Source of the DNA: the human T2T-CHM13v2.0 reference genome, Homo sapiens
NCBI RefSeq assembly: GCF_009914755.1
Contig: NC_060930.1
DNA length: 64,000 nucleotides
Direction: 5' to 3' (one strand)
Shown: positions 10,283-41,641 of the stretch, piece by piece
Numbering within the stretch: the first letter of the stretch is position 1
Layout: every line of letters starts with the position of its first letter
The notes under the pieces: generated by a model
What the model saw: only the letters and a program-made list of their open reading frames with translations
Told to the model about the DNA's origin: nothing
The model's database searches: none
Made by a program: the position numbers and the translations under genes

Positions 10283-10354
10283 TTTTTTTAATTTGAAGAC
10301 TAATTATTATTAGGCAGTTGGGTTACATTTGAACGTATGTCACATAAAACTTAC

Positions 10355-10567
10355 TCTTTGCTCCTTTTCCTTTTCCTCTTCCATAGTTTGAAATGCAAGG
10401 ACATGTGCTTCTTTTAATGATTTGTGTCTTTGCTGATGTTGCTCCTCTAATTCTTCAAGCTCTTGCGTAAGCCGCTGTCGTTCTTGCGTAAACTGGGCTT
10501 GCAGTTGTTGCAAAGAAGTCTGAGACTGGGAAAGCTGTATCTCCAGATTCTGTTTCAGCAAGGAAAT
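10355..10567 (-). CDS. FAM184A: FAM184A exon 10 (213 nt, phase 0-0): ISLLKQNLEIQLSQ...EEEKEKEQR
   Basis: Overlaps ORF 10340-10561; acceptor ...ggcatag|, donor AGA|gtaagt. Confidence 0.93.
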
Positions 10568-17557: not shown

Positions 17558-18295
17558 CTTAGGACATCAAGAAAAATATTCAACAATGTTCAATTCTGTG
17601 TCATCTAATTTTAAAGGACAAGTTGAGTATGGGTTTGGTGTGAAAATAAATCTCACTTTTTCTTATGATATACAAAGAAAAATGTTTTTAAATGAGTGTT
17701 AAATGGAATATTATTTTGAAGATGAATTTCTGCATACCTGAGTGTACATAAGTAAAGAGTGATCACTTTGTCAATGCTTAGGAAAGGGATTTACTCTATT
17801 TTGCTTTTCATCTGTTGATAATTATAACATTACAATGTATAAAATATGTTCTAATTCCCATAAACCTTCATAACAATCCAGTACTTTTAAAAAAGGAAGT
17901 CACTAATGCTAGTTTTTCAAAAAATAAACTAGTTTAACAACAAAAAAATTTTACATTTATTTCCATTTTTATGATTCAACTAGTTAATAGTTTTTCAAAA
18001 ATATTACTATATCTTTCAAAGTAAACATAAAAATAATGAAATTTATGTCTGAGATATAAAATCTCAATTGGCTTTATAATAAATATATGCTTATTAATAC
18101 ATGTGGTAGATGTATGCATACACAAATGAATGACTGAAAGTTAGAAGCTTTTATTACCCATACACAAAATATATCTTATTGAATGCCAAACAGTATTTTT
18201 TATATAAGTTGAAGCTTTAAAGCAGTGATGTTGTTTATGCAAAATGAAAAGTGCAACATGCCCTTGTGTACAAATTGTAAGTGCCGCTCACTTAC

Positions 18296-18337
18296 ATTGC
18301 TGATAGATTTATGCAAAGCTTCACCCAGAGACTGCCG
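18296..18337 (-). CDS. FAM184A: Candidate 42-nt in-frame cassette exon in FAM184A intron 9: RQSLGEALHKSISN
   Basis: Long polypyrimidine tract ending tcttttcttcatag|, donor AAT|gtaagt, 14 codons with no stop, phase 0-0 matching the host intron. Confidence 0.65.
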
Positions 18338-18996
18338 CTATGAAGAAAAGATTACAGGAATAAAGGGAAACATTCAGAAATCAACTAAGTGAAAGAAAGA
18401 GGAATAAGAAGGGAGAGTAAAACACAGAACATTAATTATAATGTGCTCAAGAGAAAACAAGTTGAAAACAGTTCTAAGAAACAAACTAAACAAAAAGAAA
18501 TTAAAGACACACAGTCTAAATTATCTATAATCCCTTAAAACAATGTCTGATATATTTGTGGGCTTGCAGACTTACCTATACAAACTACTAAAGGCTAGGC
18601 CATATAAATCAGAGTTCAGTTTAAAAGATGATGGTTACTGAGGGACCAAGAGGGGATATTACTGTTCTAAATTCCTCCCAGAAAGCTACAAGATAACTAT
18701 TCAAAGCATTATGCCCACTTTGCTGTAGGTTCACGGAGAATTTCTCTTAAGAGAAATGAGTTGCGGTGAAAACCGCCAACACTAACTTGACTGACCATAT
18801 AATTTGGAAGCCAGAAATAAATATGACATAATCACTAGAAATTAAGGATTTAATAATAATCTGGTTTTATATTAGGGGGAAAGGAAGAAGAGACACCCTT
18901 ATATCTTTTTAATCCTATTTCCTAGGATATATTTGGCAAAATTATTTACAACATAGGCTCATTTTTCAGAAGTTCATTGAAATTTTATGTTGATAC

Positions 18997-33108: not shown

Positions 33109-33259
33109 CTGGTTTAAGAGATCTTCTACTTTCTTCTGCCATGAATCTCTTGCTGCATTTTTCTCTCGATCTTTCAACTGCAAAAGTTGAGACATTGCTG
33201 ACTTCTTATCCTCTTCATGTTGAAGCCTTAACTCTTCACGAAGTTTAGAACACTCTTGT
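33109..33259 (-). CDS. FAM184A: FAM184A exon 9 (151 nt, phase 2-0): QECSKLREELRLQHEEDKK...KVEDLLNQ
   Basis: Within ORF 33067-33279; acceptor ttttattttag|, donor CAG|gtaatt. Confidence 0.93.
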
Positions 33260-39825: not shown

Positions 39826-41518
39826 ACTGGTATTCTTACAATTCCTAGAAATTTCTCATGCCTCAGAGCGTTTGCATAAGCTTTCCTAAATTTATTATTT
39901 TGACGAGCCCTTGTTAATTACTTACCACCCTTTGTAATATGCCTCAGACTTGTGTTTACTTGTTTTTGTGTCTGTCTGTCCATAGTAGTAGGGACCATGT
40001 CTGACTGACTTATCACTGAAACCGCAGTGTGTAACAGTGCTTTGGTACCTAATAGGCATTCCATATTTATTAAATAAATGAATGAGTCACTTACAGAAAA
40101 ACTTCGTATATACTTACTAGCAATTAAGAATAAAATCTCTTTAACATCTCAGAATGAAGGTATTTAACTCCTAGAAGGACCCTAAATGCCTTCACTTTCT
40201 TGACCTTGTATTGTACCAAGGCAGCTGCTAGGCCATGTGTGCCTCTAAGCAGGAAAAAGGCAATACCCCTCAGTGTGGAAGCAGCCCCAGAACATGGAAA
40301 GAGAAGCAAACAAAACTTGTGTGAACTGGGAGAAGACTCCCTTTCTTCCAGGCAGCAGACTTCAGAGAAAATTTAAGTTTTTCTATACTTCTTCTACTAT
40401 AAACAGTGCTGAAATTTTGTCAACAATCCGTAGTTATCTGCTTAGGTTAAATACACAAAAAAATGAAACTGTTGAGTTAAAGGACATGCCTGTCTTTAAG
40501 GCTTTCATATGTGCTGATAAATCCCTTTCGAGGAAAATTATACAATTTTGAATCCCCATCAGCAGTTTCTGAGTGCTTATTTCTTTATCGTTATTAACAC
40601 TGCATGGTCTCAATTTTTTTATCATTGTTAATTTTATGGTGATGGAATGGCATCTCATTGATTTCATTTCCAGTTCTTAAATTATACAAATTATTTTTTC
40701 CTGCTTATTTTTAGCTTGTAAAAAGATAATCTGGGTGTCTGTATTTTTCTTATTGTTTTGTAAATACTCTTAAAAGTGTTAAAGACATGAACTCTTCATT
40801 GGTCAATTTGTCAGTCTCTTCATCTCTCCCAGTTTTTCCTCTTTTTAAATTTTGCTTATGGTGTGTTTTGATATAAAGAAGTTTTAGCTTTAACTGTACA
40901 AATATTCCATGTTTCAATTCACAACTTTGATATCATGTTCAAACAGCCTTCTCTGTCCTCAGGTTTGTCATTTTTGTTTTCATATTTTATTTATATTCAT
41001 ATCCATGATTTTCATATTATATTCCAATCCTTAACCCACCTGGAACTTTGCCGATATGAGATTGAAGAAGAGCTCTAACTTCCCTCTTTTCTCCTCTTTC
41101 ATTTATATCTAGTCTTAAAAGGGCAATGTCACAGACTGTAATTCAAATTAAGCCTACTGATTCTAGCTACCATCCTCAGTTTCTGTTGAAATTGTAGAAA
41201 AAGAGGCAGTATAGAGAATAATAAGCTATTTTTTGGCAAAAGGGTAGAGAACTCTCTCTTGTTCTTTTCCTATGTGGTGATATTCTGTTTTGCTTCTCCC
41301 CACAACAGCACCTTAGTTTAATGTTTTTGACAGTAAATTTTACCTGGTGGAACATAATCAGAGTGTCATGAAAAATTCAACACCAATTAAAGTTTTTAAA
41401 TTATTTTTATTCTAGATATGTTACCTTTACTGAGACTTACCTACCTATACAATGTCACCAGAATAAGTTATTATTATTAAAATCTATAACATAGGCAACA
41501 GGTCTAAAGAATTCTTGC

Positions 41519-41641
41519 CTCTTGATTGGCTGTATTCAACTTGTCTTCCAGTACTTCCTTTAGGTTTTCTAGCTCTTGTTGAAGCTGATTTTTATCCTCT
41601 TCCAGGTTTAGTTTATCTTTGTTATGTTGTTCTTCCAAATC
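41519..41641 (-). CDS. FAM184A: FAM184A exon 6 (123 nt, phase 0-0): DLEEQHNKDKLNLEEDK...KLNTANQE; GC donor
   Basis: Acceptor tttctttttctaag|, donor GAG|gcaaga; this boundary joins in frame to exon 7 (IGHLQ) and read-through stops after 4 codons. Confidence 0.9.

What the first reader, a model, noticed from the sequence alone, without database searches (positions are those of the whole stretch)
18276..18296. The candidate exon's 5' splice site is folded into a perfect 8-bp stem-loop
Seen: the + strand is TGTAAGTG-ccgct-CACTTACA, so the pre-mRNA reads U|GUAAGUG-agcgg-CACUUACA. The stem covers positions -1 to +7 of the donor, most of the U1 snRNA pairing site. Established: hairpins over the 5' splice site control MAPT exon 10 and SMN2 exon 7 (TSL2). 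Inference: an RNA-structure switch keeps this exon skipped by default and could be opened by an RNA-binding protein or helicase, possibly via the GCATG 14 nt beyond the stem.
Basis: partly seen in the sequence, partly recalled or inferred. Interest (0 to 1): 0.8.

Follow-up and report, generated by a model that had tools for sequence, protein, structure and literature searches.

The report
Donor hairpin on hidden FAM184A exon
An 8-base-pair RNA hairpin covers the splice donor of a 42-base FAM184A exon that is conserved across jawed vertebrates but missing from the human gene models seen here, and it probably limits use of that exon.

Summary
The palindrome TGTAAGTG-ccgct-CACTTACA is at 18276-18296. 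On the gene strand it folds into a perfect 8-bp, 5-nt-loop hairpin of -8.0 kcal/mol that covers donor positions -1 to +7.

The "candidate exon" (18296-18337, minus strand, 42 nt, phase 0) is real. Its 14 residues sit exactly at this junction in 114 of 114 FAM184A proteins retrieved with a query spanning the insert and its flanks, from rays and coelacanth to marmoset and macaque. No hominoid record has it.

Orthologous DNA could not be fetched. Antisense ORFs from unnamed contigs gave a codon-level view instead. The residues encoding the 3' arm and a 4-bp outer extension are unchanged in 5 of 6 orthologues. In one non-primate clade, only the loop and bulge codons changed. The sixth orthologue keeps exon and donor but lacks the arm.

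A GCAUG at +35 is compatible with all 6 orthologues.

An 8-bp hairpin alone is common: 61 in the window. About 230 donor-covering ones are expected genome-wide by chance.

Verdict: observation confirmed; interpretation partly supported. It is probably a conserved donor-masking stem-loop and a new member of the MAPT exon 10 / SMN2 TSL2 kind. The switch, helicase and RBFOX steps are untested, and so is use of the exon in humans.

The parts
18276..18296 (-). The 21-nt stem-loop on the pre-mRNA: an 8-bp stem and a 5-nt loop covering donor positions -1..+7.
   Evidence: Sequence. Fold of -8.0 kcal/mol with z -3.42.
18289..18296 (-). 5' arm, which is the splice donor: U(-1)|GUAAGUG(+1..+7).
   Evidence: The residues S-L-T encoded on the opposite strand are invariant in all 8 rows of alignment A1.
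18284..18288 (-). Loop AGCGG (+8..+12). It contains one of the rare CpGs of the window.
   Evidence: The loop codon changes R to K in P0222, P0223 and P0224, which needs 3 nt changes. Window CpG observed/expected is 0.23.
18276..18283 (-). 3' arm CACUUACA (+13..+20), complementary to the donor.
   Evidence: The residues C-K-C encoded on the opposite strand are unchanged in 5 of 6 non-window orthologous ORFs and replaced in P0225.
18270..18273 (-). Outer extension, 3' side (+23..+26, UUGU). It pairs with exon positions -2..-5 (18297-18300) across a 2-nt bulge (18274-18275).
   Evidence: Minimum-free-energy structure, with pairs listed. The Thr codon at 18270-18272 is invariant in all 8 rows. 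The bulge codon changes N to S in P0222, P0223 and P0224.
18296..18337 (-). The 42-nt, phase-0 alternative coding exon of FAM184A, encoding RQSLGEALHKSISN. It is absent from NM_024581.6 and from every human-type protein found.
   Evidence: Phase and translation. The insert lies exactly at this junction in 17 of 120 listed proteins. It is also in 114 of 114 proteins retrieved with a query spanning it.
18338..18372 (-). Acceptor and polypyrimidine tract (…uuuccuuuauuccuguaaucuuuucuucauag|).
   Evidence: The opposite-strand residues RYEEKITGIKGNIQKSTK are 17 of 18 identical in P0222, so the upstream intron flank is strongly conserved.
18257..18261 (-). GCAUG at +35..+39, the core RBFOX-type motif. 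It is preceded by G, not U.
   Evidence: It is the only GCATG on the gene strand between 18000 and 18600. 0 of 13 annotated exons have one within 100 nt. The aligned residue triplets of all 6 orthologues allow CATGC, against 274 of 8000 random triplets.

Best explanation
The palindrome is a conserved donor-masking stem-loop on a genuine, ancient alternative exon of FAM184A. The exon is 42 nt and phase 0 and encodes 14 residues. It lies in the 22.5-kb intron between the annotated exons 33109-33259 and 10355-10567.

Its last codon is Asn (AAY), so donor position -1 is never the consensus G. U1 recognition must therefore rest on the intronic GUAAGU(G). That is exactly the part that pairs with CACUUACA 5 nt downstream.

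The hairpin is 21 nt long, so it could fold soon after it is transcribed and compete with U1 snRNP. This would lower the effective strength of an otherwise consensus donor, so that inclusion of a very short exon depends on activators.

Shown here: the hairpin, the reality and age of the exon, and retention of the arm-coding residues in two mammalian clades while loop and bulge diverged. Inferred: that the hairpin forms in cells, that it reduces inclusion, that the downstream GCAUG recruits RBFOX proteins, and that a helicase or RNA-binding protein opens the stem.
For: 1. Hairpin: -8.0 kcal/mol, 0 of 200 shuffles as stable. It is kept and extended in context and reaches -10.7 kcal/mol for a 39-nt piece.

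2. Real exon: 17 of 120 listed FAM184A proteins carry RHSLGEALHKSINN exactly between ...DLLNQ and ISLLKQ.... All 114 proteins retrieved with a 40-residue query spanning the insert and its flanks carry it, with consensus R-H-[SCFY]-L-G-E-A-L-[HQ]-K-S-[IV]-[NS]-N. They come from rays, coelacanth, lungfish, amphibians, reptiles, birds, monotreme, marsupial and many eutherians, including marmoset, capuchin and macaque.

3. Conservation of the arm: in alignment A1 of opposite-strand ORFs, the residues encoding the 3' arm (C-K-C) and the outer extension (T) are unchanged in 5 of 6 non-window orthologues. In P0222, P0223 and P0224 the only changes between -5 and +26 are the loop codon (3 nt changes needed) and the bulge codon. 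Further out, 12 of 21 intron codons differ between human and P0222 (my count).

4. Folding of back-translations: every donor base +1..+6 is paired in 383 of 384 codon choices for TNCKCR and in 297 of 384 for TSCKCK.

5. Accessibility: predicted P(unpaired -3..+6) is 0.00013. That is below all 13 annotated donors (0.0008-0.117) and ranks 2 of 29 GTRAGT sites.

6. Precedent: stems of 7-8 bp at donors control SMN2 exon 7 and tau exon 10 through U1 access (PMC1802598 passages; PMC6720520 abstract start; PMC11802352 passage).
Against: - No orthologous nucleotides were available. Residue identity cannot exclude synonymous changes, and invariant arms give no covariation.
- The conserved comparison is essentially one independent contrast (primates against one other clade). 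My rough probabilities for it are only 0.03-0.07.
- The intron flanks of this exon are conserved in general, for example 17 of 18 residues upstream in P0222. The arm could be conserved for another reason.
- P0225 keeps exon and donor but has NCKC replaced by VSAA.
- 7% of all GT sites are predicted to be as occluded. Two donors of exons in the selected RefSeq transcript score 0.0008 and 0.0014.
- A 9-bp donor stem had no effect in a yeast reporter (PMC1802598 passage).
- About 230 such donor hairpins are expected genome-wide by chance.
- No human or ape protein record contains the exon: 0 of 40 named hominoid entries and 0 hominoid entries among the 114. The human copy also has a unique His-to-Gln change at an otherwise invariant position. 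The element may therefore be idle in humans.
Confidence: 0.5

Rival explanations
1. Incidental complementarity. The sequence at +13..+26 is conserved as part of the generally conserved flank of an ancient regulated exon, for instance as a protein-binding intronic enhancer or silencer. Its match to the donor would then have no measurable effect on splicing.
For: Both intron flanks are conserved well beyond the stem (upstream 17 of 18 residues in P0222; downstream blocks such as KAV and MQ). P0225 shows that the exon persists without the arm. Two donors of exons in the selected RefSeq transcript have predicted accessibilities within tenfold of this one. A 9-bp donor stem was without effect in a yeast reporter (PMC1802598 passage).
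Against: The chance of an 8-bp perfect match to the donor at loop distance is 1.1e-3 per donor. In P0222, P0223 and P0224 the variable codons within -5..+26 are exactly the two unpaired ones, and the loop codon changed at all 3 bases. I know of no protein motif that matches CACUUACA (my own inspection, no tool).
Confidence: 0.25
2. Relic or chance. In the hominoid lineage the exon is no longer used, and the palindrome has no present function in humans, whatever it did ancestrally.
For: 0 of 40 named hominoid entries, and none of the 114 insert-bearing proteins, are hominoid. The 8 human-type proteins lack the exon (4 named Homo sapiens plus 4 unnamed that share the human Asp variant). Human has Gln at position 2, where 114 of 114 other proteins have His, and also N13S relative to other therians. 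Perfect 8-bp hairpins are common: 61 in the window.
Against: Both splice sites, the open frame and the hairpin are intact in human. Ser at position 13 is the form in 32 of the 114 proteins, all of them outside therian mammals apart from a single rodent, so it is tolerated. Many non-hominoid primates also lack an annotated insert isoform, so absence may reflect tissue sampling. The database is clustered at 90% identity, which could hide an isoform differing by 14 residues.
Confidence: 0.15
3. The hairpin acts positively. For example, it could place the downstream GCAUG closer to the donor or present it better, or it could shield the donor from a repressor until the exon is defined.
For: A review states that splicing regulatory elements downstream of stable hairpins tend to show elevated activity (PMC11802352 passage). 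The GCAUG lies 14 nt past the stem and is compatible with all 6 orthologues.
Against: The stem buries the bases that U1 must pair with. In the characterised cases of this geometry the stem is inhibitory (PMC1802598 passages). P0225 keeps a GCAUG-compatible triplet without the arm.
Confidence: 0.1

Closest known systems
MAPT (tau) exon 10 donor stem-loop
   Same: It is a hairpin at the exon-intron junction of an in-frame alternative exon. Its loop and most of its stem are intronic, and the stem masks the donor from U1 snRNP. It has about seven stably formed pairs (PMC6720520 abstract start; PMC1802598 passage). The helicase p68/DDX5 promotes U1 access to it (PMC3326330 passage).
   Different: The tau stem is bulged, GC-rich and has a 6-nt loop (PMC1802598 passage). 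Here the stem is 8 perfect pairs with 3 G-C pairs and a 5-nt loop. The tau stem is validated by disease mutations; nothing here has been tested. Here the exon is not known to be used in humans at all.
SMN2 exon 7 terminal stem-loop 2 (TSL2)
   Same: It has an 8-bp stem with low GC content on a short exon, and it is inhibitory through competition with U1. The effect scales with stem stability and with the length of the U1 duplex (PMC1802598 passages).
   Different: TSL2 is almost wholly exonic, has a triloop and sequesters only 2 donor nucleotides of a weak donor (same passages). Here only 1 stem base is exonic, +1..+7 are all sequestered, and the intronic part of the donor matches the consensus.
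RBFOX-activated cassette exons with a downstream (U)GCAUG
   Same: There is a GCAUG at +35 of a short, deeply conserved alternative exon. The motif is compatible with all 6 orthologous ORFs.
   Different: The motif is GGCAUG, not UGCAUG. A GCATG within 100 nt is expected in about 9% of cases from the window density. No binding or knock-down data were found: 0 papers hold Fam184a, alternative splicing and Rbfox together. That downstream GCAUG activates exons is from my own knowledge.

Membership tests
Donor-sequestering stem-loop regulating an alternative exon (MAPT exon 10 / SMN2 TSL2 kind) | The stem includes donor nucleotides that pair with U1 snRNA. | tested here: met
   The stem covers -1..+7. 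P(unpaired -3..+6) is 0.00013.
Donor-sequestering stem-loop regulating an alternative exon (MAPT exon 10 / SMN2 TSL2 kind) | The exon is a real, alternatively used exon. | tested here: met
   In other vertebrates, forms with and without the insert are both recorded: 17 with it and 97 with the direct junction among 120 listed proteins, and all 114 proteins of the second search carry it. Use in humans is not shown: 0 of 8 human-type proteins have it.
Donor-sequestering stem-loop regulating an alternative exon (MAPT exon 10 / SMN2 TSL2 kind) | The structure is conserved or covaries across species. | tested here: inconclusive
   At residue level only, arm codons are unchanged in 5 of 6 orthologous ORFs, the loop and bulge codons changed in one clade, and the arm is lost in P0225. 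No nucleotides were available, and no compensatory changes are possible to score.
Donor-sequestering stem-loop regulating an alternative exon (MAPT exon 10 / SMN2 TSL2 kind) | The structure forms in the RNA (chemical or enzymatic probing). | not testable with these tools
   Only thermodynamic prediction was possible.
Donor-sequestering stem-loop regulating an alternative exon (MAPT exon 10 / SMN2 TSL2 kind) | Destabilising mutations raise inclusion, and compensatory mutations restore skipping. | not testable with these tools
   This needs a minigene. P0225-type species may offer a natural experiment, but their identity and inclusion levels are unknown.
RBFOX-dependent exon | A (U)GCAUG lies within the proximal downstream intron and is conserved. 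| tested here: inconclusive
   GCAUG is present at +35 without the leading U. The residue triplets NMP, KHA and DMP all allow CATGC, against 274 of 8000 random triplets, but half of the codon choices lack it.
RBFOX-dependent exon | RBFOX binding, or a response to RBFOX loss. | not testable with these tools
   No paper links Fam184a, alternative splicing and Rbfox in the searched library. Supplementary tables were not searched.

The most novel reading that the evidence does not exclude
An exon of FAM184A conserved across jawed vertebrates is governed by a donor-masking hairpin retained in at least two mammalian clades, with a GCAUG just beyond it. Lineages that lost the 3' arm (P0225-like) include the exon by default. 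Hominoids, which keep a perfect stem, have all but silenced the exon and are now letting its coding sequence drift (the unique His-to-Gln change). That would be a natural series in which one small RNA structure sets the inclusion level of a deeply conserved exon across species.
Probability: 0.15. Interest if true: 0.65.

Novelty: new member of a known kind. Interest (0 to 1): 0.5.

Why it matters
Two things come out of this finding.

First, human FAM184A contains an intact 42-nt coding exon with both splice sites. It is not in the selected RefSeq transcript and is in none of the human-type proteins retrieved. Yet it is almost invariant from rays to monkeys. Such exons are usually functionally important and tissue-restricted.

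Second, its donor is buried in a simple hairpin whose arm-coding residues persist in two mammalian clades. This is a compact, easily mutated and cross-species testable case of structure-controlled splicing, comparable to tau exon 10 and SMN2 exon 7. It could be opened with an antisense oligonucleotide against the 3' arm.

The gene itself is poorly understood, and the mechanism is of a known kind, so the general impact is moderate.

Tried and rejected
- Orthologous DNA: a degenerate pattern for the exon plus donor found 0 matches in genome contigs and 0 in viral contigs. Metagenome scans are capped at 0 and were not attempted. All cross-species evidence is therefore at residue level.
- Repeat or RNA family: the 221-nt region is single-copy in the window's own genome. 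Rfam gave 0 matches at E up to 1 over 17800-18800.
- Paralogue: a degenerate pattern for the core peptide gave 18 hits in the own genome, none in the FAM184B region on contig 4 near 17.69 Mb. This is weak evidence, since the pattern also misses the human FAM184A exon, which has CAG instead of CAY.
- Literature: no paper found describes this exon or hairpin. Searches were Fam184a + exon (43 papers); Fam184a + alternative splicing + Rbfox (0 papers); and a six-term search in which no listed paper mentioned Fam184a. Two FAM184A mentions that I read concern expression or a gene list only. Supplementary tables were not opened and might list the exon.
- The "all synonymous" rows were cut at 200,000 combinations in product order and are not a fair sample, so I do not use them.
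- P0226 (891 aa, E 3.6e-4, 27 aligned residues) is an unrelated repetitive protein and was dropped.
- Recursive splicing was considered and rejected. The exon begins CGG, not GU, so no donor is re-formed at the acceptor.
- For P0225, back-translation cannot decide whether some other pairing covers the donor: 1370 of 18432 codon choices pair all six bases.

Full report
**1. The observation**

The + strand at 18276-18296 reads TGTAAGTG-CCGCT-CACTTACA. FAM184A is on the minus strand, so the pre-mRNA reads AAU|GUAAGUG-AGCGG-CACUUACA. The 21-mer folds into 8 Watson-Crick pairs with a 5-nt loop at -8.0 kcal/mol. Its z-score is -3.42, and 0 of 200 dinucleotide shuffles fold as well.

In a 151-nt context the hairpin remains in both the minimum-energy and the centroid structures. 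It gains four outer pairs, between exon positions -5..-2 and intron +23..+26, across a 2-nt bulge. The context as a whole is no more stable than shuffles (z +1.17). A 39-nt piece folds at -10.7 kcal/mol. The GCATG is 14 nt past the stem, at 18257-18261.

**2. Chance**

Perfect 8-bp hairpins with loops of 3-10 nt are common. The window has 61 distinct ones, 11 of them with at least 3 G/C in the stem. First-order Markov simulations give 11.4 and 5.4.

Stems that cover +1..+6 of a GT are rarer: 7 of 3303 gene-strand GT sites, and this is the only one at a consensus donor. The analytic chance is 1.1e-3 per donor. That is 0.016 for the 14 real donors of this window, and about 230 cases genome-wide if one assumes 200,000 exons, which is my own round figure. 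The hairpin alone is therefore not evidence of function.

**3. The exon is real and ancient**

The putative exon is 18296-18337 on the minus strand (42 nt). It is flanked by a good polypyrimidine tract with AG and by GUAAGU. The exons of the selected transcript upstream of it within the window sum to 1929 nt. The 22.5-kb intron between exons 33109-33259 and 10355-10567 is therefore phase 0. The exon reads RQSLGEALHKSISN in frame.

A search with the downstream exon (71 residues) found 1276 proteins, of which 120 were listed. Their junctions fall into four groups:
- 97 have the direct junction ...DLLNQ|ISLLKQ...
- 17 carry RHSLGEALHKSINN exactly at the junction.
- 5 carry only a rabbit-specific extra exon.
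- 1 is a camel fusion model.

A second search used 40 residues centred on the macaque insert and returned 114 proteins with E up to 0.001. All 114 carry the insert. They come from rays, coelacanth, lungfish, frogs, a newt, lizards, snakes, turtles, birds, echidna, opossum, armadillo, rodents, rabbit, bats, pangolins, carnivores, horses, ruminants, pigs, whales, marmoset, capuchin and macaque.

The consensus is R-H-[SCFY]-L-G-E-A-L-[HQ]-K-S-[IV]-[NS]-N. This is a deeply conserved alternative cassette exon.

**4. The human and ape state**

None of the 114 is hominoid. Of the 120 proteins, I count 40 named hominoid entries from seven species, and none has the insert. The 8 human-type proteins also lack it (4 named Homo sapiens and 4 unnamed ones that share the human Asp variant).

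The human exon has Gln at position 2, where all 114 others have His. It has Ser at position 13, where therian mammals have Asn. Ser is also the form in 32 of the 114, nearly all non-therian.

Three caveats apply:
- The database is clustered at 90% identity.
- Many non-hominoid primates also lack an annotated insert isoform.
- I could not see GENCODE or the other two RefSeq transcripts directly.

Whether humans use the exon remains open.

**5. Conservation of the hairpin**

No tool gave orthologous DNA (metagenome scans capped at 0). The opposite strand, however, carries a 59-codon open frame (18213-18389) spanning intron +1..+83, the exon and the upstream flank.

A search of the representative library with this frame found the window's own ORF, five orthologous ORFs from unnamed contigs and one unrelated protein, which I dropped. 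A further search added P0227.

In this frame the RNA 3' arm is encoded by C-K-C, the loop by R, the donor by S-L-T, the bulge by N and the outer extension by T. Alignment A1 shows three patterns:
- P0221 and P0227 (90% and 93% identical to the window's ORF, His-type exon) are identical to human through the whole hairpin.
- P0222, P0223 and P0224 form a second clade with the Cys-type exon. They share motifs with each other and align with human far into the intron. They read T-S-C-K-C-K-S-L-T. The only changes between -5 and +26 are the bulge codon (N to S) and the loop codon (R to K, which needs three nucleotide changes). Further out, 12 of 21 intron codons differ between human and P0222 (my count).
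- P0225 keeps exon and donor, but N-C-K-C is replaced by V-S-A-A, so the arm is gone.

Folding every synonymous back-translation with the human donor side gave these counts for all six donor bases being paired:

| Residues | Codon choices with +1..+6 all paired |
|---|---|
| TNCKCR | 383 of 384 |
| TSCKCK | 297 of 384 |
| P0225 | 1370 of 18432 |

Both synonymous alternatives in the arm codons (TGY, AAR) turn a Watson-Crick pair into a G-U pair, so they would not break the stem.

Arms kept while loop and bulge change is the pattern expected of a selected structure. But it rests on essentially one independent contrast. My rough probabilities are 0.03 for four of four stem codons being conserved given 11 of 24 conserved overall. 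They are 0.07 for the two changes falling on the two unpaired codons out of six. Conservation usually decays with distance from an exon anyway, and no compensatory change can be scored.

**6. Accessibility and strength**

Local folding gives P(unpaired, -3..+6) = 0.00013 for this donor. That is lower than all 13 annotated donors (0.0008-0.117) and ranks second of 29 GTRAGT sites. However, 7% of all GT sites score as low or lower.

Position -1 is a pyrimidine in every species, because the last codon is Asn. The donor must therefore rely on the intronic GUAAGU, which is the part in the stem.

**7. The GCAUG**

It is the only GCATG on the gene strand between 18000 and 18600. None of the 13 annotated exons has one within 100 nt. 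The window density predicts one in about 9% of 100-nt stretches. The aligned residue triplets (NMP, KHA, DMP) all allow CATGC, as do only 274 of 8000 random triplets, but half of the codon choices lack it. This is suggestive and not shown. I found no paper that links Fam184a to RBFOX.

**8. Comparison with known cases**

- SMN2 TSL2 has an 8-bp stem and a triloop and is almost wholly exonic. It sequesters two donor bases and inhibits U1 recruitment in proportion to its stability. The same paper warns that a 9-bp donor stem had no effect in a yeast reporter (PMC1802598, passages read).
- The tau exon 10 hairpin has about seven stable pairs (PMC6720520, abstract start in the listing). It interferes with donor recognition (PMC11802352, passage). 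The helicase p68/DDX5 opens access for U1 there (PMC3326330, passage).
- The present element has the tau geometry (intronic loop and 3' arm) with the stem length and low GC content of TSL2.

**9. Verdict**

The exon is real, the stem masks the part of the donor that matters, and the arm is retained at codon level in 5 of 6 orthologues.

Three parts of the interpretation are untested: default skipping, opening by a protein or helicase, and RBFOX dependence. Use of the exon in humans is also unshown.

I put 0.5 on a conserved, inhibitory donor stem-loop, 0.25 on incidental complementarity within a conserved flank, 0.15 on a relic without present function in humans, and 0.1 on a positive role. 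It is a new member of a known kind, of moderate interest.

Noticed in passing
window 18296-18337 (-): An intact, in-frame 42-nt FAM184A exon that is conserved from rays to monkeys (114 of 114 retrieved proteins). It is not in the selected human RefSeq transcript or in any human or ape protein found. The human copy has a unique His-to-Gln change at residue 2.
   Followed up: yes
window 18332-18340 (-): The human-lineage change CAY to CAG creates a second AG 6 nt inside the exon (uag CGG cag|UCU). This is a possible tandem acceptor that would give a 36-nt in-frame version. The other species have His (CAY) here and so lack this AG.
   Followed up: no
window 18282-18288 and 18333-18339: The CpG-containing 7-mer AGCGGCA (gene strand) occurs at the acceptor/exon start and again in the hairpin loop, 51 nt apart. 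It occurs only 5 times on that strand in the 64-kb window. The loop copy is not kept in P0222, P0223 or P0224, so this is probably coincidence.
   Followed up: partly
window 41511-41518 (-), donor of exon 41519-41641: This annotated exon has a GC donor (GAG|GCAAGA), so the intron is GC-AG.
   Followed up: no
window 18213-18389 (+): A 59-codon open frame antisense to the exon and its flanks appears as predicted "proteins" of 83-181 residues in public protein libraries (P0220-P0225, P0227). These are spurious ORF calls on vertebrate DNA, but they served here as a proxy for intron conservation.
   Followed up: yes
proteins P0027, P0029, P0032, P0071, P0080, P0097, P0098 (rabbit) and P0219 (turtle): Further lineage-specific inserts lie in the same intron, downstream of the 14-residue exon. 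Rabbit has a 21-residue insert (LTDETKWSSPSLRIDKAVVFY), and a turtle model has a longer extension.
   Followed up: no
window 10347-10357 (-), donor of exon 10355-10567: The donor AGA|GUAAGU is, by my recollection, of the GA|GU type that risdiplam- and branaplam-like compounds can act on. One paper lists FAM184A among genes over-expressed under risdiplam (PMC13297622 passage). No link between the two was tested.
   Followed up: no
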